NCBI GenBank assembly: GCA_965249485.1
Contig: OZ252239.1
Coordinates: 3,643,587 to 3,707,586, forward strand
DNA length: 64,000 bases
Direction of reading: 5' to 3'
From: a bacterium
GTDB lineage: Bacteria; SM23-31
Each line of letters starts with the position of its first letter. Position 1 is the stretch's first letter. The translations under genes were made by a program, and so were the position numbers. Under the pieces are notes generated by a model. It searched no databases, was not told where the DNA came from, and saw only the letters and a list, made by a program, of their open reading frames with translations. Positions 7,497 through 30,523 of the stretch are shown one piece after another.

Positions 7497-7931
7497 TTAT
7501 TTAATATAGTCAAGTTTTCCCAGAACATAAAAGGTTTGATAATAGCCGGCACTGTTGTTTTCCAGAAATGTGTGAATCCATTGGAGACGTGTCTTCTGAT
7601 CATAGCCACCGCCGTCATGTGTCCATCTGATAAAAACAGACTGGTCTGTAATCGGCAGCTGTTTTACATTGGCCATCCAGCCATACCATTTAAAAGAATT
7701 TCGCAATAAATACTGCTCGACATTAGACGTATAGAACGAACTAACCGTAAGAAAACGCTCTCTCAGGAATTCTGATATTTTGTGGAGTGTCCAGCTTCCG
7801 GCAAAATCGCCGGTGACCGGAATGATTCTGTTCTTTTTATGGAGATATCTCAGAAACTTGTAATCATCGTTACTATTAAAGGGATTTTGGTGTATCCCGC
7901 CTTCTGATCTCATGCGGAGTACTTGACCCAA
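7497..7931 (-). CDS. Hypothetical protein; possibly the frameshifted C-terminal continuation of the upstream ORF
   Basis: 144 aa ORF that overlaps the preceding ORF by 56 nt in another frame. It has only a TTG start and no RBS. Confidence 0.25.
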   Translation of the reverse strand: MGQVLRMRSEGGIHQNPFNSNDDYKFLRYLHKKNRIIPVTGDFAGSWTLHKISEFLRERFLTVSSFYTSNVEQYLLRNSFKWYGWMANVKQLPITDQSVFIRWTHDGGGYDQKTRLQWIHTFLENNSAGYYQTFYVLGKLDYIK

Positions 7932-8619
7932 AGATCGGATACCATGACCTTTTTGAACCGTTGTAAGTTATATCGATATTGTATTGATAGAAGTTTTCGA
8001 GAACTTTTCTGAGAGCATTTTTATCCCTCTCTGTCAGAGTAAAACCATACGTATTAGATAATCGGCTTTCAATTTTAGACCGTGTTGTTGTAAGCATCTG
8101 TCGGTCGGATTGTGCCGTAGAAAAAAACTCTATGATCAACTCGATATTATTATCTTTATTAAGATCAGAGGATGAGTCAAGCGGCTTAGAAAAGAGCAGA
8201 GACAAGAATTCAGCACGGGTATCAGCCAGTTCGAAGAGCACCTTATAGACAAGGTGTTGCATAGTATTTTGATGCCTGATATCGACAATAAACGCTAATT
8301 GGGGTTTTATTGCAGATATATACACGAAGTTCTGATTGGGTCCGACACCGAGGTAAACACCTCCATTCACTAAATTCTTCTCGATTGACGGCAGCACATT
8401 GAGATAAGTCAATTCATTCGATATCCAATTATCACTCGGAAAATATCCGCCATATTCTGAAAATGTTGTCACAATTTTTGAAAATTCCTTGTCAGATATG
8501 TCAGGAAAGGTCTGAGCAGTTACAGGAACTGTATAAGATATGGTGATCAACCAGAATATGAAAATGAATCGCACAAACATAGATAAGGTATTGTTGGACG
8601 TATTCATTGTTTGAGTCAT
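7876..8619 (-). CDS. Hypothetical exported protein
   Basis: 247 aa with an N-terminal TM/signal segment. No recognisable family. Confidence 0.4.
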   Translation of the reverse strand: MTQTMNTSNNTLSMFVRFIFIFWLITISYTVPVTAQTFPDISDKEFSKIVTTFSEYGGYFPSDNWISNELTYLNVLPSIEKNLVNGGVYLGVGPNQNFVYISAIKPQLAFIVDIRHQNTMQHLVYKVLFELADTRAEFLSLLFSKPLDSSSDLNKDNNIELIIEFFSTAQSDRQMLTTTRSKIESRLSNTYGFTLTERDKNALRKVLENFYQYNIDITYNGSKRSWYPIFGSSTPHEIRRRDTPKSL

Positions 8620-9960: not shown

Positions 9961-11253
9961 TTATCCCGGAATAAGATTGAGAATCTCTTTTATCGGCATG
10001 CATAAATCGTTCGCTTCATAAGAACGTTCATGTTCCAATATCGATTCTGCTGTTTTAATCATAGCCGGATAGGCGCTGCGAAGAAGGTGGTTTGCATAGA
10101 TGACTATGTTCGCGCCAGCAGATGATAATTCCGACTCGGTAATAGAATTATACGTTGAAGGAACCGCTACTAACGGGACGCGATTTTCAAACTTCTTGTA
10201 TTCGTCGCAAAATTCGAGAACCTCTTGTGGAGACTTTTCCTTGCTGTGAATCATGATCCCATCCGCACCTGCTTCAATAAATGCGTGAGCCCTTTTAAGA
10301 GCATCCTGCAAGCCGGCTTTTAGAATAAGACTCTCAATACGAGCAATTATCATGAAATCGTTTGTTACCTGGGCACGTTTTCCTTCGGAAATTTTACTCG
10401 AAAAATTATCAATTGAATCTTGCGTTTGTTCAACTTCTGTACCGAACAGTGAATTTCTCTTCAAGCCAATTTTGTCTTCAATAATCACAGCAGAAACTCC
10501 CAATCGTTCCAACGTGCGTACCATGAGGATAAAATGTTCAACATATCCGCCACTGTCTCCGTCATATATGATCGGCTTTGTTGAAACTTCCAATATTTGG
10601 TTCACTACATTTAATCTGCTTGTAAAATCTCCGAACTCAATATCAGCTTTACCTTTTGCGGTTGAATCTGTCAAACTGCTGATCCACATACCATCGAATT
10701 CTTTAATTTTGTCATCTTTTGTGACTTTTGTATGTTCCACTATTAATCCGGTCAGCCCGTTATGTGCTTCTAATATTCTGGTAACCGGTTTTACTTCTAT
10801 CATTCTCCGAAGCTGTCTCATCCTTACTTCTGGTGTTGTACCAATCTCGCGTACAGCTTCCTGAAGTATTTTGGAAGACACACCCTTTGTATAGGATGGC
10901 TCTACCAGTTCTCCACCCCATTCCTTGAGCACTTCAATTACTCGTTCTCTGGTTTTACTCATAAAACCAGTTTTCCAGTCATCGCCATGCACAACATAAT
11001 CTGGCTTCATTTTCCTTAGGTTATCATCATAATCAAAAGTCTCCTGCGGTACAACGTGAGCAACACCTTTGATATTTTCGACAATTATTCTTCGCTGATC
11101 GTATGTCAAAAGAGGAAATCTGTAATGTGAGGCAATCGCTTTATCAGTTAATAAGCCAATCGTAACCTCACCTAACTTTCGAGCTTCCTGTATTATGTTT
11201 AAATGACCATGGTGTAACAAATCAGCACTAATTGCTACATAGACTTTTTTCAA
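9961..11253 (-). CDS. Bifunctional cytidylyltransferase–phosphoenolpyruvate mutase (Fom1/PntC-Ppm-like fusion), copy A, intact
   Basis: 430 aa. N-terminal ~130 aa carry the HxGH nucleotidyltransferase motif ([10 protein letters not shown]). The C-terminal ~290 aa are from the ICL/PEP-mutase family, with the PEP-mutase signature [12 protein letters not shown]. Confidence 0.8.
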
Positions 11254-11539
11254 TGTGAAACTCCAATAATATTAGAATGTCATTGAGACAAATTAAAGAA
11301 CGATTTAATAATACCACATTTTATTATTATTATAAATACGCAATACACTGAACAGAGTTTTCATCCACTGTACATTTCGCATTGTTGTGATTAAAATCAT
11401 GGAAAAAACAGCGGATTAATTCCTGTTAAATTATATAATGGTTTATAGAATATAAGACAAAAAACTATAAAACTGATTATATCACAGGAAAAATACTGTG
11501 ATATTTTTTAGTATTTTGTTTTTGTGTTTATGATTATCT

Positions 11540-11890
11540 TCATTTTATTTGTGCAGTTTTATCGCCCTCACTCAAAAGTATTTTATTCTCTTCTTGGAGA
11601 ACCTTACTAAAATATACACCAAAGATATTTAAAAATAATATTGGCCAGACATAAATATTTTGCTCAACTTTATAGATAGCTATTGTGATAAAAAATCCGA
11701 ACAGTGTAAATTCATAGAAAAGCATAGTATCAAAGACTTTTTTAAGCCAATAACCAATTGGTGTGCCTTTATCTCTAATCCTGGCAAGAGAGCCATCAAG
11801 ACAATCTAAAAAATGTTGTATTTCATTTATAACTCCAGCAATTATAAAACTTATATAGTTTGCCCGGAATATTAGATAAAATATCGTCAA
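11540..11890 (-). pseudogene. CDP-alcohol phosphatidyltransferase-family gene, N-terminally truncated paralog (copy A)
   Basis: 116 aa. Retains the DG(x2)AR(x8)G(x3)D signature (LDCLDGSLARIRDKGTPIGYWL). Lacks the ~70 N-terminal residues present in the 235-aa paralog at 16126–16833, and an upstream in-frame stop confirms the truncation. Confidence 0.5.
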
Positions 11891-12026
11891 AGCAAAAACT
11901 GTCTAAAAATTGTAATCTGATTGGGAGTTATCCGGGAATTTTTCATTAAAAGAGCAACTTTTCTTGCCGATCTTTCAAAAATATCCTTTCTTTCATCAGG
12001 AGAACCAAATATTACCGGAAATCGCA

Positions 12027-13478
12027 TTATTGTTTTTCTCCAATTAATTCAGCAAGTACTACTCTGTCATTATGGTCAAATCCTTTTAGGAGCAATAAAA
12101 TTAATGTAAATAATAAAAGTCCGAATATGATTGTTATATAATAAGAAAAAGACATCCCAAAAATCACAATCAGTATTCCAGAGGATGCCACAATCGGTTT
12201 AATCATATTTTTGAATGCCGTTATAATAAGTAATCTTATATCAGAAATGAATATCCCGGTAATGATAATTGAAATGTACGAAAATACTACTGCTAATGAT
12301 GCTCCAATGATTCCAAACGCTGGAATAAGTAAGATATTTAGTAAAATAAACAAACTCCCGCTTATTAATTCTAATACTAATGGGTACATTTGTTTATCGC
12401 TTGCTATTAAAGTTGAGTTTAAAAATACAGATACAAAAATAAATACAAGTGAAAACATCAATATCTGCGCAGGGATAACGGCCATAATATATTGCTCTTT
12501 AAAAAGGAACACAATTATATTTTCCATATATACGTAAAAATATATCATAATGGGAATTGCAAGTATAGTTAAATATTTTATGGAAAGACCAAAGACATTC
12601 ATAAATACATCACGATTTTCAATGTATTTTTTAGCAAGAACAGGTGCCAATGTAATATTAAGAATAGCAGGGATAACGGTGAATACTGCTGGGATTCTCC
12701 ATGCAACAGAAAAAAGTGCAACCTGATCCGAAGTCATATAAAATTCGATGATCAGAACAGCAACATTTAACTTGATTATATAAAAAACGGCACTTAACAA
12801 AATTGGAAATGATTTCTTGAGGAGATTAAGGAATTCCGTTATATTAATACTGAAGCGGGGCCGTGGAAATAACTTTAAATAGAAAAGAGCAATACATATA
12901 AAACCCGGTAGGTCACAAAGTCCCACAGCCAGAATTAAATAATAAAATGAGCTATTACTTGTAAAAATAATCCATATTGAAGCAAGAAATATCAATCTGC
13001 CAAGAATGTTGAATAAGACTATATACATTATCTTAAAATTAACAACATACATTATTTCCCATATTTTTCTAAATGATTTGATTTTTGCAGAAAATAAAAT
13101 AAAAGGTGTGGCGATTAAGATTAGTCTGGTAGTTTCGGAAGTGTAACCAAACTGAGAATGTAACAAAAGAAATATGCTATAAGAAATGATAATTAGTATG
13201 ATACTGAAAAGTCCAGCAAATGTGAGACAAATACCCATTAATTGTGAGGATAAAGAAGTGTTTCGTGCAATTTCTCGCTGAATAATACTCGTCATACCAA
13301 AATCAGCAAAAACAGCAAATAATGTAAGATAAGCGATAATGAAATTATACTGACCGAATTGATCTTGTGAAAGGAAACGACTCAACCAAATAAATATATA
13401 AAGCTCAATTATTCGTGTAATAATGCTTTCAGAGAGAAAAAGAAGGGAATTTTTTGCTGCAACTCTAACATGAGCCAT
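12027..13478 (-). CDS. Polysaccharide biosynthesis/export protein, MOP-superfamily Wzx-like flippase
   Basis: 483 aa with ~12–14 TM helices. N-terminal region is typical of the PST family. Confidence 0.7.
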   Translation of the reverse strand: MAHVRVAAKNSLLFLSESIITRIIELYIFIWLSRFLSQDQFGQYNFIIAYLTLFAVFADFGMTSIIQREIARNTSLSSQLMGICLTFAGLFSIILIIISYSIFLLLHSQFGYTSETTRLILIATPFILFSAKIKSFRKIWEIMYVVNFKIMYIVLFNILGRLIFLASIWIIFTSNSSFYYLILAVGLCDLPGFICIALFYLKLFPRPRFSINITEFLNLLKKSFPILLSAVFYIIKLNVAVLIIEFYMTSDQVALFSVAWRIPAVFTVIPAILNITLAPVLAKKYIENRDVFMNVFGLSIKYLTILAIPIMIYFYVYMENIIVFLFKEQYIMAVIPAQILMFSLVFIFVSVFLNSTLIASDKQMYPLVLELISGSLFILLNILLIPAFGIIGASLAVVFSYISIIITGIFISDIRLLIITAFKNMIKPIVASSGILIVIFGMSFSYYITIIFGLLLFTLILLLLKGFDHNDRVVLAELIGEKQ

Positions 13479-13598: not shown

Positions 13599-14735
13599 TT
13601 ACATTATATCTAATAATAGTGTTTTTATTTTTTTCTTTGTTATTATTCTTGGATTATTCTTCAACCTTTGCGTATTAATGTTCTTAGCAATTTTTTCAAT
13701 GTCATAATTAGAACGTATTCCAAGTTCAGTCAGTTTTGTAGACAATCCGATATTACACATCATTTTTTTTATTTTAATCTTTATATCACTAACCCCGGTA
13801 ATATCCATTAAAGTACTCAGTTCTTTAATAACACTTTTTACATATTCTACGCCTCGAGCATCAATAACATCTTGGGATGACACATTACTATTGTAAATAA
13901 ATATTGGAGTTAAAGTAAGTGCCACTGCATGTCCATGCGGAATATTATAGTATGAGGTCATAGGATAGGAAATAGCATGTAGTGCAGTTGTTTTAGTAAT
14001 ATTGATTGCTTTTCCCGAAAGGTGAGATGCATTTAACATCACTTCAGCGGTATCCCTCGTAGGATTGTTTACCGCGCATTCAATTGTCCCTAAAATCTGT
14101 TTAATTGCTTGTTTAGAATAAATTTTTGATTCATCAGTTGAATGTATACTCCAATATGATTCAATAGCTTGGCAAAGAGCATCCATACCAGAAGCAGCCG
14201 CAACTTGTTTAGGCATATTAACACAAAACTGGGGATCTAATAGGGCAACATCAGGCTGAATACATTCATGCATAATTGAGTATTTTTTATACCCATCATA
14301 TATAACTGCAAAGTGTGTTGATTCACTACCAGAACCCGAAGTAGTTGGTATTGCTATAATAGGAACTTTTTTTTTTATAATCTTTTTATTAGATCGGATA
14401 AAATCTTGCACTCCTAAAGATTGTACAGCAAGCACACTAATCAACTTTGCCATATCTATCACACTACCACCACCGATAGCAACGATTATATCCTGATTAT
14501 CTTTTTTAAAAAGTGTTACTCCTCTTTGCACATCTTCAATTTTTGGATTAATTTCAAAATCAAAAAACTTATGAACGATGTAAGAATTTAATACTTTACT
14601 TACAACTTTTTCAGCACCGCTACTTTTAAATGAATTGTTTCCAGTAACAAGAAAAACATTTTTGCACTTAAAGGATTCAAGTATACTTTTCAAATGTATA
14701 ATACTATTATATCCTGAGATTTCTGTTTGATTCAT
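13599..14735 (-). CDS. Iron-containing (group III) alcohol dehydrogenase; candidate phosphonoacetaldehyde reductase (FomC/PhpC-like)
   Basis: 378 aa. Fe-ADH motifs GGGSVIDMAK and the His-rich metal site (HGHAVA). Located between PEP-mutase copies and the phosphonopyruvate decarboxylase. Confidence 0.7.
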   Translation of the reverse strand: MNQTEISGYNSIIHLKSILESFKCKNVFLVTGNNSFKSSGAEKVVSKVLNSYIVHKFFDFEINPKIEDVQRGVTLFKKDNQDIIVAIGGGSVIDMAKLISVLAVQSLGVQDFIRSNKKIIKKKVPIIAIPTTSGSGSESTHFAVIYDGYKKYSIMHECIQPDVALLDPQFCVNMPKQVAAASGMDALCQAIESYWSIHSTDESKIYSKQAIKQILGTIECAVNNPTRDTAEVMLNASHLSGKAINITKTTALHAISYPMTSYYNIPHGHAVALTLTPIFIYNSNVSSQDVIDARGVEYVKSVIKELSTLMDITGVSDIKIKIKKMMCNIGLSTKLTELGIRSNYDIEKIAKNINTQRLKNNPRIITKKKIKTLLLDIM

Positions 14736-14786: not shown

Positions 14787-15606
14787 TTAAGCATATAACT
14801 TGAGGAGATCATTAATTGAAATACACTTTTTTTCTGCTTCCAAAGATCGTCCATTAAGAAGAATTGTTTCAGCAGTTTTTTTCATGATTGGATATGCACT
14901 TCTAAGAAGTTGATTTGCATATATAACAATATTCACTCCTAATTCTTTTAATGCAGTTTCTGTTAGATTGTTATATTTTGTAGAAATTGCGACAAGGGGA
15001 ACCCGTTTTTCAATTTGAGAATATTCCTGATAAAATGAGAGGATTTGCTGAGGAGTTTTTTCATTACTGTGGATCATGATTCCATCTGCACCAGCCTCGA
15101 TATAAGCATGTGCTCTTTTCAAAGCACCGTTTAAATCAGATCCGTGAATTAGACTTTCAATTCGACCAATAATCATAAAATCATTTGTGATCTGAGCTTG
15201 TTTCCCTTGAGATATTTTATAATGAAAAACTTTCAATAGAATCTTGAGTTTTTTTAAAGCCAGATTTCATTAATGAATTCTTTTTTAAAACTATTTGGTC
15301 ATCAATTATGACTGCTGTAACACCCATTCGTTCTAAAGTTTTTACTATATGAACAAATTGTTCTGGATGGACACCCCTATCTCCTTCAAAAATTGTCGGT
15401 TTTGTAGACGCTTTTAAAATTTGATTGGTAGTTTCAATTCTTGAAGAAAAATCGACATGCTCAAAATCTACTTTACCTTTTGAAAGACAGACAGTTTGGT
15501 TGCTAATCCAAATTCCATCAAATTCCTTAATAATATTATCAACTGTTACTCTGGTGTTTTCAACGATTAATCCTGAAATGCCGTTATGAGCTTCTAATAT
15601 TCGCAC
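14787..15606 (-). pseudogene. PEP mutase domain remnant (copy B), disrupted by a frameshift; EDK motif changed to DDQ
   Basis: Two overlapping ORFs, 15217–15606 and 14787–15236, in different frames. Together they align end-to-end with the C-terminal PEP-mutase part of copy A. The catalytic-loop sequence reads IIDDQIVLKKNSL where copy A has [13 protein letters not shown]. Confidence 0.6.
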
Positions 15607-15633
15607 AAATTTATTGGTCTGGAGTATTTTCCT

Positions 15634-16077
15634 TTATTTTTTTACTTTAGGGTTTTGTGGGATACCTAACACTCTTATTTTTTCATTCAGCAGTGTCGAG
15701 GATATTCCAGGAGTATATGGTATCTCAACTAATTCCCCATTCCACTCTTTTAAAGTATGTATAACTCGTGCTCTAATTTCTTTCTGTACTCCAGTTTTCC
15801 AATCATCGCCATGGACAACATAGTCGGGTTTCATTTTTCTTATATTCGGAATATAATCAAGCGTTTTCTGGGGTAGAACGTTTATAACTCCTTTGATACT
15901 TTGAATAACTGTTTTTCTTTGTTCATATGACATATAAGGCAATCGTTTGTAACCTGCAATCGCTTCATCAGTCAACAATCCTATTGTTACTTCTCCCAAT
16001 TTTCGAGCATGATTGATAATATTTATATGTCCGGGATGAATGAGATCAGCACTCATTCCAACGTAAACTTTCTTCAT
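15634..16077 (-). CDS. Cytidylyltransferase domain protein (copy B), severed from its PEP-mutase domain by an in-frame TAA
   Basis: 147 aa, ~70% identical to the N-domain of copy A, with the HxGH motif IHPGHINII. The TAA at 15634–15636 is in frame with the downstream mutase remnant. The linker is homologous to the copy-A interdomain linker. Confidence 0.6.
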
Positions 16078-16125: not shown

Positions 16126-16833
16126 TTATGTATATCTTTGCTCTTTGAAGTGAAGTACTGTTAAACTTGCATACCTTAACCACTGGATTTGTCTGAAAAC
16201 GGCAATTACTATCATTGCTATTAGAAGAGGATTTATTTTAAGATATGAATAGAGTGGTTCGTAAAATATCATACAAAAATAGATAAACTGTGGGTACCAT
16301 ATAAAGATTTTAAAAATCAATTTGCTGAATTTGCTTCTTTTCTTATCCTGGATTACAATATCTTTTCTACTCCGGTTTTTTAAATTTATATATGCGTCTA
16401 AAAATATTTCTTTAAATAGAAATCCAAAAGTATTAAAAAATAACACTAACCATATTATCGGATTATTTTCGATTTTATAAATTGCTAAGGACAAAAAGAA
16501 TCCAAATAGGCTAAAATCACTAAACAACAATAAATCCACCTTCATTTCCAACCAATATCCAAATTTAGTTTCCATTTTATTTAGTCTTGCCAGTTGTCCA
16601 TCAACGCAATCTAAAAGATAGTGGAATTCACAAAGTATTCCGGCAATTATAAAATATTGATATTCTGCTTTATAAAGCAAAAAATACAGTACTATTGATA
16701 GTGGTTGTCTGAATAATGTTACATGATTAGGCTTTATCTTAGTATTTTTTAAATAATAAGCAATTTTTTTTCCGCATTTGTTAAAGACACTGACTCTGTC
16801 TGCAGGATTTCCAAAAATTGTTGGGAACTTCAT
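16126..16833 (-). CDS. CDP-alcohol phosphatidyltransferase-family membrane protein (full length, copy B)
   Basis: 235 aa. Signature LDCVDGQLARLNKMETKFGYWLE. Multiple TM helices. Confidence 0.65.
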   Translation of the reverse strand: MKFPTIFGNPADRVSVFNKCGKKIAYYLKNTKIKPNHVTLFRQPLSIVLYFLLYKAEYQYFIIAGILCEFHYLLDCVDGQLARLNKMETKFGYWLEMKVDLLLFSDFSLFGFFLSLAIYKIENNPIIWLVLFFNTFGFLFKEIFLDAYINLKNRSRKDIVIQDKKRSKFSKLIFKIFIWYPQFIYFCMIFYEPLYSYLKINPLLIAMIVIAVFRQIQWLRYASLTVLHFKEQRYT

Positions 16834-16953: not shown

Positions 16954-17514
16954 TTATATTAAAGAGTTTCTTAGTTGATCTTTTATTTTCTCTGGGGTAT
17001 GACTAACGCGTGCTATTCCCTTGATATTTCCGGATTCCACATTAATCTGCACACAGATCGGACCGTTATTACTTATGATATTTTGAAAATATCTTTCTAA
17101 CTCACTTAATTCTGAAATCGTATTTACTGATACATATCCGGAGCTTTTTGCTATATCCGCAAGGTTAATATCTGAAGTAATGGTTTTCTGCCCGCCGGTC
17201 GAGCTGTACACCTGATTGTCAAAAATTATATGGTAATAGTTTTTAAGTTGCAAAAATCCGGCTAGTGGGAAATTCCCAAGATTCATGAGTGCACTACCGT
17301 CCCCATCAAATACAAAAACCGGAATATCCGGTTTATTAAGAGCAATGCCTATTCCTATAGATGAAGCATACCCCATAGATCCGATCATATAAAAATTGTT
17401 TGCCCTGTCATTGAGCGTAAACACTTCTCGGGAAATCATTCCTGTTGTACATATGATCGGTGCATTGTCAGGTAACACTTTAAAAATAACTTGTAACGCT
17501 TCTATTTTATTCAT
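16954..17514 (-). CDS. Phosphonopyruvate (or sulfopyruvate) decarboxylase, beta subunit (TPP-binding C-terminal domain)
   Basis: 186 aa. TPP-binding GDG…N motif (VFVFDGDGSALMNLGNF). Immediately downstream of the alpha subunit. Confidence 0.7.
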   Translation of the reverse strand: MNKIEALQVIFKVLPDNAPIICTTGMISREVFTLNDRANNFYMIGSMGYASSIGIGIALNKPDIPVFVFDGDGSALMNLGNFPLAGFLQLKNYYHIIFDNQVYSSTGGQKTITSDINLADIAKSSGYVSVNTISELSELERYFQNIISNNGPICVQINVESGNIKGIARVSHTPEKIKDQLRNSLI

Positions 17515-17537
17515 GTCATTTTTAAATCAAATAATAT

Positions 17538-18026
17538 TCAGTCAATTATATTATCTTTTAAGATAGCAGCCACGGGAACCTGTTTTTCGTCCATAACTGC
17601 TATAAGCTCCGAAAAAACAGATTCAATATTATCCTTTTCGAATATTTTATAGGGTATCTTCATTAATTTCAAAAAATTTAACATCTCAGCGCCCATAATG
17701 ATGTGTTCAGGTGCGTCCTTCCCTTGATAGCCTCTCCAGGAAATGATCATGAATACTGGAATTTTGTATATTAAATTGAGAGAAGTAAGTCCATTAACCA
17801 CATTGCCAAGTCCAGAGTTTTGGATTAGTATTCCAGACCTTCTACCCGAAAAATAACCGCCCGTAGCGATTCCCAACGCCCCATCTTCTCTTGTTGCAGG
17901 GATATATGTAAAATCGGAATCGTTCTCAATTTCAATTAAAATTTTCTTGAATATCGAGCACGGAACACCGGAAAGAAATGTTAATCCGTATTTTTTTAAG
18001 TGTGAAGAAAATTCATTTGAATTCAT
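17538..18026 (-). CDS. Phosphonopyruvate (or sulfopyruvate) decarboxylase, alpha subunit (TPP-enzyme N-terminal domain)
   Basis: 162 aa of ComD/Ppd-alpha-like sequence (ATREDGALGIATGGYFSG…ILIQNSGLGN). Clusters with the PEP mutase. Confidence 0.7.
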   Translation of the reverse strand: MNSNEFSSHLKKYGLTFLSGVPCSIFKKILIEIENDSDFTYIPATREDGALGIATGGYFSGRRSGILIQNSGLGNVVNGLTSLNLIYKIPVFMIISWRGYQGKDAPEHIIMGAEMLNFLKLMKIPYKIFEKDNIESVFSELIAVMDEKQVPVAAILKDNIID

Positions 18027-29582: not shown

Positions 29583-30523
29583 TTATAGTGTTTTCATCCA
29601 GTTATATTGTTGTTCAAGACCCTCTTCCAGAGAAACCGCGGGGCTATAATTAATAAGTTTTACTGCTTTATCAATTTCAGAATAGGTGTGTAAAACATCC
29701 CCTTTTTGCTTTTCCACATATTCGATATTAATATTATCTTTATTACACAACTTTTTCATAATGGCAAACAGGTCATTTACAGATGTTGCTCTATGACTGC
29801 CAACATTGAAACATTCATTGTCCCCGGGGTGGATTGCGCTGGCAATTGTCGCGTTAACAATATCCGTAACATAAGTAAAGTCTCTTTTCTGATTCCCATC
29901 GCCAAAAACTTTTATCGGCTTATTGTTTAAAATGTTTTTTATAAATAGATGAAAAGCCATATCCGGCCTCTGTCGCGGCCCATATACCGTAAAATATCTT
30001 AACCGGACAAAATGGGAATACCATACGCTTTGAAAAATGCGTTGCAGGTGTTTTCCGCGGCTAATTTTGTAACCCCATAAGGCGACAATGGTTTTTTGGG
30101 AGCATTTTCAGGGATGGGCAAAACATCCTGATCTCCGTAGACAGACGATGATGAAGCAAAAACAAATTTCTTTATCTTGTAATTCTTCACCTGATCTAAA
30201 AGATTATTCGTCAATAATACGTTGTTTTCAAGATAGTTATTAAAATAACTGCCCCAACTTTGACGAACTCCAGGTAAAGCGGCTAAGTGAAAAATATACT
30301 CTGTGTCTTTTAAAATATCATCCAGTCTAAACTTTAATAAATTTTCATTTAGAAATGTAAACTTCCTATTATTAAGTAAATTTTTCAGATTATCTTTTTT
30401 GATCTCGGCAGAATAGTTATCTGTAAAAGCATCAATTCCAACAACTTGAAACTTCTGATTGAGCAATTCTTCCGAAAGATGAGAGCCGATAAATCCCGCG
30501 GCTCCTGTTACCAAAGCTTTCAT
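29583..30523 (-). pseudogene. NAD-dependent epimerase/dehydratase (UDP-sugar 4-epimerase/decarboxylase-like), with a frameshift
   Basis: The N-terminal ORF (MKALVTGAAGFIGSHL…YGIPILSG*) and C-terminal ORF (MAFHLF…) are in different frames. Reading through the junction in the other frame restores the conserved LRYFTVYGPRQRPDMAFH segment. This implies a 1-nt indel near 29990–30000. Confidence 0.65.

What the first reader, a model, noticed from the sequence alone, without database searches (positions are those of the whole stretch)
14787..16077. Copy-B fusion gene inactivated by an in-frame TAA in the interdomain linker, a downstream frameshift, and EDK to DDQ in the catalytic loop
The cytidylyltransferase ORF ends with TAA at 15634–15636. 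That TAA is exactly in frame with the GTG-initiated PEP-mutase remnant at 15606. Reading through it gives …[24 protein letters not shown], which aligns with the copy-A linker [21 protein letters not shown]. The mutase part is then split between two frames around 15217–15236. Its signature reads IIDDQIVLKKNSL against copy A's [13 protein letters not shown], so the catalytic Glu-Asp-Lys triad is altered. Three independent lesions argue for a genuine pseudogene, not one sequencing error. The 147-aa cytidylyltransferase could still function as a stand-alone enzyme.
Basis: seen in the sequence. Interest (0 to 1): 0.55.

Follow-up and report, generated by a model that had tools for sequence, protein, structure and literature searches.

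The report
Half-dead duplicate of a phosphonate fusion gene
A second copy of a two-domain phosphonate-biosynthesis gene has lost its PEP-mutase half to a stop codon, a frameshift and decay of conserved residues, while its cytidylyltransferase half has stayed intact as a small stand-alone gene. This is an ordinary pseudogene, but a clear snapshot of a fused gene splitting.

Summary
On the minus strand, 16077-14787 is a second copy (B) of the ~430-aa cytidylyltransferase–PEP-mutase fusion; the intact copy (A) is at 11253-9961. Copy B has an in-frame TAA (15636-15634) in the linker, a +1 frameshift (15229-15219), and DDQ in place of EDK in the EDKX5NS signature.

The mutase half is a true pseudogene.
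- It breaks 22 of 103 near-invariant family columns; homologues break at most 4.
- Its profile score is z = -11.8, and it has the longest branch among 197 sequences.
- D85E, E114D, K116Q and L48Q fall at positions invariant in 195/195 homologues.
- All 160 related loci encode an uninterrupted fusion with EDKX5NS.

The 147-aa cytidylyltransferase is still constrained: it breaks 1 of 50 columns (z = -1.1). It is 68% identical to the Fom1 HEP-cytidylyltransferase domain, which was crystallised alone (5X3D).

Two further results:
- The CDP-alcohol transferase next to copy A is itself a multi-frameshift pseudogene, while the one next to B is intact. A duplicated two-gene module has therefore decayed reciprocally.
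- Other metagenome loci carry a stand-alone cytidylyltransferase directly upstream of the Fe-alcohol dehydrogenase, the state copy B would reach by deletion.

No reads or close relatives were available. This is a known kind of event, of moderate interest.

The parts
15634..16077 (-). Copy-B cytidylyltransferase ORF (147 aa, Fom1-type, PF01467), ending in the TAA at 15636-15634. Intact and apparently still under selection.
   Evidence: 208 bits to 5X3D; z = -1.1; 1/50 conserved columns broken; pLDDT 86.7; TM 0.92, rmsd 1.6 A, 68% identity to 5X3D.
15634..15636 (-). In-frame TAA in the interdomain linker. It sits opposite a Leu codon of copy A and of the family consensus, directly after an A7 run.
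15217..15633 (-). Linker plus N-terminal half of the PEP-mutase pseudogene, in frame with the cytidylyltransferase (includes the GTG at 15606). It carries G47N (family Ser), L48Q, D85E, E114D and K116Q in Mytilus numbering.
   Evidence: (linker 5/6 and N-half 16/57 conserved columns broken).
15274..15303 (-). Degenerate signature DDQIVLKKNS in place of EDKX5NS.
   Evidence: E, D and K are each invariant in 195/195 homologues. All 160 related loci have EDKx5NS.
15219..15229 (-). Site of the +1 frameshift: one extra base relative to copy A, in or next to a T5 run.
   Evidence: (DNA alignment).
14787..15236 (-). C-terminal half of the PEP-mutase pseudogene, in the shifted frame (149-aa ORF).
   Evidence: PEP_mutase profile 121-240; 6/46 conserved columns broken.
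9961..11253 (-). Copy A: intact 430-aa cytidylyltransferase–PEP-mutase fusion with [10 protein letters not shown]. It is the only intact PEP mutase in the window. Its cytidylyltransferase domain is an unusual but conserved variant (H43, Y44, F73, M98).
   Evidence: PepM z = -0.3; CyT z = -4.5; TIGR02320 398.5 bits against a cutoff of 319.55.
11300..12027 (-). Pseudogene of the CDP-alcohol phosphatidyltransferase-family gene upstream of copy A. Its pieces lie in three frames with internal stops.
   Evidence: An intact 235-aa orthologue precedes the 81%-identical fusion in L161.
16126..16833 (-). Intact CDP-alcohol phosphatidyltransferase-family gene (235 aa) directly upstream of copy B.
13599..14735 (-). 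Fe-dependent alcohol dehydrogenase directly downstream of the mutase remnant. Homologues are named phosphonoacetaldehyde reductase.
16954..18026 (-). Phosphonopyruvate decarboxylase encoded as two ORFs (18026-17538 and 17514-16954).
   Evidence: the two halves of TIGR03297: 124.7 + 196.8 bits.
12027..13478 (-). Wzx-like flippase between the alcohol dehydrogenase and the transferase-A pseudogene.
   Evidence: The same flippase 3' end precedes the transferase in L161.

Best explanation
Copy B is the second copy of a duplicated two-gene module: a CDP-alcohol transferase followed by a cytidylyltransferase–PEP-mutase fusion. It sits inside a low-GC surface-glycan/phosphonate island.

Copy A already supplies PEP mutase, so selection on B's mutase domain lapsed. 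That domain accumulated about 20% extra amino-acid change, including changes at metal- and substrate-binding positions, plus a TTA-like-to-TAA nonsense mutation in the linker and a +1 frameshift. The N-terminal domain stayed under purifying selection. It is now a 147-aa stand-alone Fom1-type cytidylyltransferase.

The inferred pathway is:
1. PEP to phosphonopyruvate (mutase of copy A).
2. Phosphonopyruvate to phosphonoacetaldehyde (two-ORF Ppd).
3. Phosphonoacetaldehyde to 2-hydroxyethylphosphonate (Fe-ADH).
4. 2-Hydroxyethylphosphonate to its CMP conjugate (cytidylyltransferase B, and possibly A).
5. Transfer to an acceptor (transferase B).

The reciprocal loss of transferase A completes a duplication-then-degeneration pattern.

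**Shown:** the lesions, the domain-specific decay, the intact cytidylyltransferase fold, and the absence of split relatives.
**Inferred:** expression, enzyme activities, and the order of events.
For: **Lesions.**

**Domain asymmetry.**
- Identity to 120 homologues: CyT 71.5% (family 75%), linker 21% (69%), PepM 58% (72%).
- Conserved columns broken: 1/50 in CyT against 22/103 in PepM, p = 0.0012.
- HMM scores: z = -1.1 for CyT against -11.8 for PepM.
- NJ terminal branch: 0.389 for PepM-B, rank 1 of 197.

**Active-site changes.** L48Q, D85E, E114D and K116Q lie at positions invariant in 195/195 homologues. After repair, B-PepM just reaches the TIGR02320 cutoff: 324.8 against 319.55, where copy A scores 398.5.

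**No split in relatives.** None of the 160 related loci is split.

**Stand-alone viability.**
- 5X3D is the isolated Fom1 CyTase domain bound to HEP-CMP. The B model matches it at TM 0.92 and 68% identity.
- P0275 is a natural 149-aa stand-alone homologue that overlaps the start of an Fe-ADH gene on 11 contigs. One of these contigs (L165) also has a full fusion plus Ppd.

**Module duplication.** A transferase immediately upstream of the fusion occurs in 0 of 129 relatives with enough flank. It occurs in both window modules and in L161. Transferase A is broken across three frames.

**Errors are not rampant.** There is no frameshift in 35.3 kb of long intact ORFs that contain 246 homopolymers of >=5.
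Against: - No reads and no second assembly exist. All three B fragments are singleton clusters from one 3.78-Mb contig, so the single-base frameshift, next to a T5 run, could by itself be an error.
- At least two other genes in the window are split by single-base shifts near short homopolymers (DUF7790 and an epimerase). The sequence may therefore carry some indel errors, or the genome may carry many pseudogenes.
- Only 1 stop is seen where 2.4-3.4 are expected under fully neutral decay (P(<=1) = 0.12-0.30). Part of the divergence may predate truncation.
- No orthologue of B closer than 63% was found, so neither dN/dS nor the age of the lesions can be measured.
- Expression and activity of the 147-aa product are untested.
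Confidence: 0.8

Rival explanations
1. The whole of copy B, cytidylyltransferase included, is a dead relic. The N-terminal ORF only looks intact because it is short.
For: Copy A carries its own cytidylyltransferase domain, so B could be fully redundant. B's CyT terminal branch is fairly long (0.182, rank 8 of 197). No expression data exist.
Against: If the CyT domain had decayed at the mutase rate (21% of conserved columns), about 10.7 of 50 columns would be broken. Only 1 is broken, and the Fisher test against the mutase part gives p = 0.0012. The profile score lies within the family range. The HxGH and GISST motifs and K44/R45 are kept. The fold model is confident. A very recent death cannot be excluded.
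Confidence: 0.1
2. The stop and the frameshift are sequencing or assembly errors, and copy B is really an intact, divergent fusion. It might be a non-catalytic or neofunctionalised mutase-like domain with a DDQ motif.
For: The frameshift lies next to a T5 run and the TAA follows an A7 run. Other single-base splits occur in the window. Fewer stops are seen than neutral decay predicts.
Against: A nonsense substitution is not a typical homopolymer error. There are no frameshifts in 35 kb of long ORFs carrying 246 homopolymers. Errors cannot explain 22 broken conserved columns, or the changes at Mg- and substrate-binding residues invariant in 195/195 homologues. No DDQ-type relative exists among 160 loci or among the 195 proteins compared.
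Confidence: 0.06
3. Copy B is a natural multi-gene arrangement, or a recoded gene. Either the cytidylyltransferase and a split PEP mutase are separately translated and assemble, or read-through and frameshifting restore a full-length protein.
For: A gene caller listed all three pieces as proteins. Two-ORF versions of neighbouring enzymes exist, such as Ppd here.
Against: No relative has this arrangement. The GTG at 15606 would remove the conserved N-terminal helix. The catalytic positions are degenerate whatever the translation route. No recoding signal is evident.
Confidence: 0.03

Closest known systems
Fom1 of Streptomyces wedmorensis (bifunctional HEP cytidylyltransferase / PEP mutase) and the PF01467–PF13714 fusion class. 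This class makes up 23.6% of EDKX5NS-bearing PEP mutases in the RefSeq inventory (PMC6697681).
   Same: Both copies have the same N-terminal cytidylyltransferase and C-terminal PEP-mutase layout. B's cytidylyltransferase is 68% identical to the Fom1 CyTase domain structure 5X3D. Copy A passes TIGR02320 and has EDKX5NS.
   Different: Copy B is interrupted by a stop and a frameshift and lacks the EDK signature. Only its cytidylyltransferase half is a credible gene. The setting is a glycan/phosphonate tailoring island, not an antibiotic cluster.
Natural stand-alone Fom1-type cytidylyltransferases next to phosphonoacetaldehyde reductase (P0275 in L164-L166), and the CyTase–Fe-ADH fusion P0226 (L167-L170).
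   Same: In both, a small PF01467 cytidylyltransferase lies directly upstream of the Fe-ADH. In L165 this is in a cluster that also has a full CyTase–PepM fusion and Ppd. P0275 is 54% identical to B's cytidylyltransferase.
   Different: Those loci have no mutase remnant between the two genes. The window still carries about 850 nt of decayed mutase there.
Gene fission by duplication followed by complementary degeneration (for example the Drosophila monkey-king genes; cited from memory, not checked here).
   Same: A duplicated multi-domain gene is present, and one copy keeps only one domain after the other decays.
   Different: This case is bacterial. The second copy (A) keeps both domains, so only one side has clearly degenerated. 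The complementary loss here is in the neighbouring transferase gene.
PEP mutase of Mytilus edulis (1M1B/1PYM), the structural reference for active-site residues.
   Same: The B remnant aligns over residues 15-278. It keeps D58, D87, K120, N122, S123, R159 and H190.
   Different: D85E, E114D, K116Q, L48Q and G47N. The roles of D85 and E114 in Mg binding and of residues 46-48 in substrate binding come from my own knowledge of the published structures.

Membership tests
PEP mutase (TIGR02320 / PF13714 with EDKX5NS) | Sequence homology above the curated cutoff | tested here: inconclusive
   As encoded, there are two fragments with partial Pfam hits. After manual repair the score is 324.8 bits against a cutoff of 319.55, where copy A scores 398.5.
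PEP mutase (TIGR02320 / PF13714 with EDKX5NS) | EDKX5NS signature motif | tested here: not met
   The motif is DDQIVLKKNS at 15303-15274. E and K are invariant in 195/195 homologues. The motif is present in 160/160 related loci.
PEP mutase (TIGR02320 / PF13714 with EDKX5NS) | Uninterrupted reading frame covering the whole barrel | tested here: not met
   There is a TAA at 15636-15634 and a +1 shift at 15229-15219.
PEP mutase (TIGR02320 / PF13714 with EDKX5NS) | Conserved Mg/substrate residues (Mytilus S46-G47-L48, D58, D85, D87, E114, K120, N122, R159, H190) | tested here: not met
   L48Q, D85E and E114D, plus G47N; the others are kept.
Fom1-type cytidylyltransferase (PF01467, GCT/CCT-like) | HxGH motif, (T)xGISST motif and the conserved Lys/Arg pair after helix 2 (K44, R45) | tested here: met
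   H14-P-G-H17, YTPGISST and Y43-K44-R45 are present and aligned to 5X3D, ECT and TagD.
Fom1-type cytidylyltransferase (PF01467, GCT/CCT-like) | Complete nucleotidyltransferase fold within the ORF | tested here: met
   The model has pLDDT 86.7 and pTM 0.81. The best PDB match is 5X3D with TM 0.92 (target-normalised), rmsd 1.6 A and 68% identity.
Fom1-type cytidylyltransferase (PF01467, GCT/CCT-like) | CTP-dependent cytidylylation of 2-hydroxyethylphosphonate | not testable with these tools
   This needs an enzyme assay.
Pseudogene (domain-level) | Disabling lesions plus loss of purifying selection relative to functional homologues | tested here: met
   One stop and one frameshift; 22/103 conserved columns broken; z = -11.8; longest branch of 197.
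Pseudogene (domain-level) | No functional product made | not testable with these tools
   No transcript, ribosome or proteome data are available.
Duplication–degeneration gene fission | An intact paralogue in the same genome, and shared module synteny indicating duplication | tested here: met
   Copy A is intact. A transferase immediately upstream of the fusion is found in both window modules and in L161, but in 0 of 129 other loci.
Duplication–degeneration gene fission | Complementary loss of the other domain in the sister copy | tested here: not met
   A's cytidylyltransferase is atypical (K44Y and others; z = -4.5). But it is conserved with its 81% orthologue at dN 0.14, against 0.126 for PepM, with dS saturated. 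The complementary loss is in the adjacent transferase instead.

The most novel reading that the evidence does not exclude
The window shows the intermediate step by which stand-alone, and later Fe-ADH-coupled or Fe-ADH-fused, HEP cytidylyltransferase genes arise from cytidylyltransferase–PEP-mutase fusions: duplication, decay of the mutase domain, and eventual deletion of the remnant.

On this reading the two cytidylyltransferases have also divided their labour. The copy-A domain has lost the near-invariant Lys44 (K44Y, shared with its 81% orthologue). It would then act on a different substrate, or not at all, which would make cytidylyltransferase B the pathway's canonical HEP-activating enzyme.
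Probability: 0.25. Interest if true: 0.45.

Novelty: new member of a known kind. Interest (0 to 1): 0.3.

Why it matters
- **Annotation.** The three ORFs at 16077-14787 should not be read as three genes, nor as a second PEP mutase. The cluster has one working mutase (copy A) and probably two cytidylyltransferases.
- **Surveys.** pepM-based surveys of phosphonate potential filter on EDKX5NS. Such a filter would correctly drop copy B, while profile-only counts would not.
- **Evolution.** The locus is a dated-looking intermediate. It links the very common fused architecture to the stand-alone and ADH-coupled cytidylyltransferase architectures seen elsewhere. It also shows reciprocal gene loss inside a duplicated biosynthetic module.

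None of this changes what is known about the chemistry.

Tried and rejected
**Searches that found nothing closer**
- Exact-protein look-ups for the B fragments and for copy A in the contig index found nothing. The source genome could therefore not be named, and no independent assembly could be compared.
- Genome and metagenome scans with repaired copy B found no relative above 63% identity.
- A search with the neighbouring Fe-ADH found nothing above 53% apart from the source genome itself. No orthologue of the B module is available to date the lesions or to measure dN/dS.

**Analyses that could not decide**
- dN/dS for copy A against its 81% orthologue gave saturated dS. Only dN could be compared between the two domains.
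- A neutral-decay simulation of the expected number of stop codons was inconclusive (P = 0.12-0.30).
- The promoter/terminator scan showed fewer promoter-like sites than shuffles and no terminators, so it says nothing about the expression of the pieces.
- No tRNA marks the island borders.

**Other dead ends**
- The Fom1 paper (PubMed 28727444) is not held. Roles of individual CyTase residues therefore rest on alignments to CCT, ECT and TagD, and on memory.
- Short cytidylyltransferase hits in the representative library are partly contig-end fragments. P0322 turned out to be a poly-A frameshift case, not a clean stand-alone gene.

**Hypotheses considered and rejected**
- *Full reciprocal subfunctionalisation, with A's cytidylyltransferase dead.* Rejected because that domain is conserved with its orthologue.
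- *The linker's very low identity means a scrambled frame.* Rejected because it aligns in frame with conservative R-to-K type changes.

Full report
**1. What is in the sequence**

On the minus strand, the ATG at 16077 opens a 147-aa ORF that ends with TAA at 15636-15634. Reading on in the same frame gives [18 protein letters not shown]... down to a TAA at 15219-15217. The rest of the protein continues in another frame as the ORF 15236-14787.

Pfam assigns the three pieces as follows:
- the 147-aa ORF to CTP_transf_like;
- the 129-aa ORF to PEP_mutase profile positions 13-113;
- the 149-aa ORF to PEP_mutase profile positions 121-240.

The intact paralogue, copy A (11253-9961, 430 aa), aligns with copy B end to end at 64% nucleotide identity. 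In that alignment the B stop lies opposite a Leu codon. B also carries one extra base in TTTTTCATTATAAAAT against TTTTTCG-AGTAAAAT, which places the frameshift at 15229-15219.

**2. The family**

Both copies belong to a very large family of ~432-aa fusions of PF01467 and PF13714; more than 8000 database hits were scored. Some sources name these proteins PEP phosphomutase / 2-hydroxyethylphosphonate cytidylyltransferase. The characterised prototype is Fom1. In a RefSeq inventory, PF01467 fusions made up 23.6% of PEP mutases that carry the EDKX5NS motif (PMC6697681).

**3. Is the mutase half really decayed?**

I aligned A and repaired B with the 120 best homologues of B. Choosing homologues by similarity to B biases the test in B's favour.

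| Measure | CyTase domain | Linker | Mutase domain |
|---|---|---|---|
| Identity of B to homologues (homologue-to-homologue), | 71.5% (75%) | 21% (69%) | 58% (72%) |
| Columns >=97% conserved that B breaks, | 1 of 50 | 5 of 6 | 22 of 103 |
| Most columns broken by any single homologue, | 3 | 1 | 4 |
| HMM score of B, trained on 60 homologues and tested on the other 60, | 252.8 (family 260 +/- 7), z = -1.1 | – | 399.4 (family 509 +/- 9), z = -11.8 |

Further points:
- Copy A breaks 5, 1 and 4 conserved columns in the three regions.
- The contrast between B's CyTase and mutase domains is significant (Fisher p = 0.0012).
- In a neighbour-joining tree of 197 sequences, B has the longest mutase branch: 0.389 against a median of 0.056.
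- The rate at which B breaks conserved mutase columns (21%) is about the same as its excess divergence overall (1 - 0.58/0.72 = 19%). That is what complete loss of constraint predicts.
- Mapped onto the Mytilus enzyme (1M1B), B has G47N, L48Q, D85E, E114D and K116Q. It keeps D58, D87, K120, N122, S123, R159 and H190. The changed positions are invariant in 195 of 195 homologues.
- After repair, B's mutase barely reaches the NCBIfam cutoff for PEP mutase: 324.8 against 319.55, where A scores 398.5.

**4. Is a split arrangement natural?**

No. The genome and metagenome scans returned 160 loci. Every one carries a single frame-continuous, full-length match with no internal stop and with EDKx5NS. 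None has a second fusion copy within 10 kb.

**5. Could the lesions be sequencing errors?**

This cannot be excluded for the single-base frameshift alone. It lies beside a T5 run, and two other genes in the window are split by single-base shifts: DUF7790 at 7497-8619 and an epimerase at 29583-30523.

Against a general error explanation:
- 35.3 kb of long ORFs with 246 homopolymers of five or more bases carry no shift.
- The TAA is a substitution, not an indel.
- Errors cannot create the residue decay described in section 3.

The three B pieces occur in only one record, a 3.78-Mb contig, so there is no independent assembly.

**6. Is the cytidylyltransferase alive?**

The evidence says yes.
- It keeps HxGH, GISST and K44/R45.
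- It scores 208 bits to 5X3D, the HEP-CMP-bound CyTase domain of Fom1 crystallised on its own (entry title).
- It folds confidently: pLDDT 86.7, with only the last residues disordered.
- The model superposes on 5X3D with TM 0.92, rmsd 1.6 A and 68% identity.

Natural stand-alone relatives also exist. P0275 (149 aa, 54% identical) overlaps the start of an Fe-alcohol dehydrogenase gene on 11 contigs. In L165 that pair sits 4 kb from a full fusion plus Ppd. P0226 is a direct cytidylyltransferase–Fe-ADH fusion found on 9 contigs.

In the window, the same cytidylyltransferase and Fe-ADH pair is separated only by the mutase remnant.

**7. Wider context**

The locus lies in a low-GC island from about 11 to 34 kb, at 28-37% GC against 42-49% in the flanks. 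The island is full of glycosyltransferases, methyltransferases, a flippase and a PMT_2-family membrane protein (Pfam hit below its curated cutoff).

The minus-strand gene order is: aldo-keto reductase, Ppd (two ORFs), transferase B, cytidylyltransferase B, mutase remnant, Fe-ADH, flippase, transferase A remnant, fusion A.

Transferase A is broken over three frames with internal stops. The first shift would be repaired by T5 to T6 near 11900.

A metagenome scaffold, L161, carries an 81%-identical orthologue of fusion A. There it is preceded by an intact 235-aa transferase and by the 3' end of the flippase gene. A transferase directly upstream of the fusion is otherwise absent: 0 of 129 relatives with enough upstream flank have it. 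In relatives the usual order is fusion, then Ppd directly downstream, with an Fe-ADH within 3 kb downstream. This shared rare synteny argues that modules A and B are duplicates and that they have decayed reciprocally. A kept the mutase and lost the transferase. B kept the transferase and lost the mutase.

**8. Copy A's cytidylyltransferase**

This domain is atypical. It has H43, Y44, F73 and M98 where 186-191 of 195 homologues have Y, K, L and Q, and its profile score gives z = -4.5. The first three changes are shared with the 81% orthologue, which also lacks Q98 (it has L). The domain's dN (0.14) is close to that of the mutase domain (0.126), with dS saturated. It is therefore a conserved variant, not a dead domain.

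K44 aligns with the conserved Lys of ECT, and with the Lys44-Lys46 segment of TagD (alignment). By my own manual alignment it corresponds to K122 of mammalian CCT. The catalytic importance of that residue is from memory and was not tested here. Whether A and B act on different substrates remains open.

**9. Mechanism**

*Shown:*
- One intact PEP mutase (A).
- One intact transferase (B).
- Two cytidylyltransferase domains.
- A Ppd in two ORFs matching the two halves of TIGR03297.
- An Fe-ADH whose homologues are named phosphonoacetaldehyde reductase.

*Inferred:*
- The pathway runs PEP, phosphonopyruvate, phosphonoacetaldehyde, 2-hydroxyethylphosphonate, CMP-HEP, then transfer to a lipid or glycan acceptor and export.

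*Order of events:*
- A fully neutral history predicts 2.4-3.4 stops for the observed excess divergence. One is seen (P = 0.12-0.30). Some decay may therefore have happened while the domain was still translated.

**10. Verdict**

The feature is a domain-level pseudogene inside a duplicated fusion gene, and it leaves a live stand-alone cytidylyltransferase. This is a known kind of event. The reciprocal decay of the module, and the match to stand-alone architectures found elsewhere, make it a tidy evolutionary intermediate of moderate interest.

Noticed in passing
window 11300-12027 (-): The CDP-alcohol phosphatidyltransferase-family gene upstream of copy A is a pseudogene. Its pieces lie in three frames with internal stops, and the first shift is at a T5 run near 11900. 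The orthologue in L161 is intact (235 aa).
   Followed up: yes
window 7497-8619 (-): A DUF7790 gene is split into two overlapping ORFs (profile positions 2-118 and 133-217) by a frameshift near 7900.
   Followed up: partly
window 29583-30523 (-): An NAD-dependent epimerase/dehydratase is split into 174-aa and 125-aa ORFs by a one-base deletion near ATTTTG at about 29990.
   Followed up: partly
window ~11000-34000: A low-GC island (28-37% GC against 42-49% in the flanks) holds the phosphonate genes plus glycosyltransferases, methyltransferases, a sugar nucleotidyltransferase, a PMT_2-family membrane protein (Pfam hit below its curated cutoff) and a polysaccharide deacetylase. There is no tRNA in the window. 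Copy A (40% GC) sits at the island's edge.
   Followed up: partly
window 16954-18026 (-): Phosphonopyruvate decarboxylase is encoded as two ORFs in different frames, 23 nt apart. In L165 it is a single 372-aa gene. I did not determine whether this is a natural two-subunit form or another split.
   Followed up: no
window 9961-11253 (-), residues 43-44, 73, 98: Copy A's cytidylyltransferase domain has H43, Y44, F73 and M98 at near-invariant Y, K, L and Q positions. The first three substitutions are shared only with its 81% orthologue P0122 among 195 homologues; at position 98 P0122 has L, which also departs from Q.
   Followed up: partly
L164-L166 (P0275); L165 1-2165: A natural 149-aa stand-alone Fom1-type cytidylyltransferase overlaps the start of an Fe-ADH gene. 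L165 also has a full CyTase–PepM fusion and Ppd 4 kb upstream.
   Followed up: partly
L167-L170 (P0226): A 512-aa cytidylyltransferase–Fe-ADH fusion protein occurs on 9 contigs. It is preceded by another 182-aa cytidylyltransferase. No PEP mutase is visible in the fetched flanks.
   Followed up: no
L162 560-603, L163 end: In two marine (TARA) contigs, a cytidylyltransferase ORF stops in the same linker right after an A7/A8 run, and another frame continues KKIVKIL. The Lys/Arg-rich linker of AT-rich genomes may be a hotspot for slippage.
   Followed up: partly
L010, L024, L056, L059, L064, L130, L139, L151: Archaeal and candidate-phyla loci carry an extra stand-alone cytidylyltransferase, about 30% identical, immediately upstream of the fusion.
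   Followed up: no
P0197, P0198, P0215: These proteins have two tandem Fom1-type cytidylyltransferase domains.
   Followed up: no
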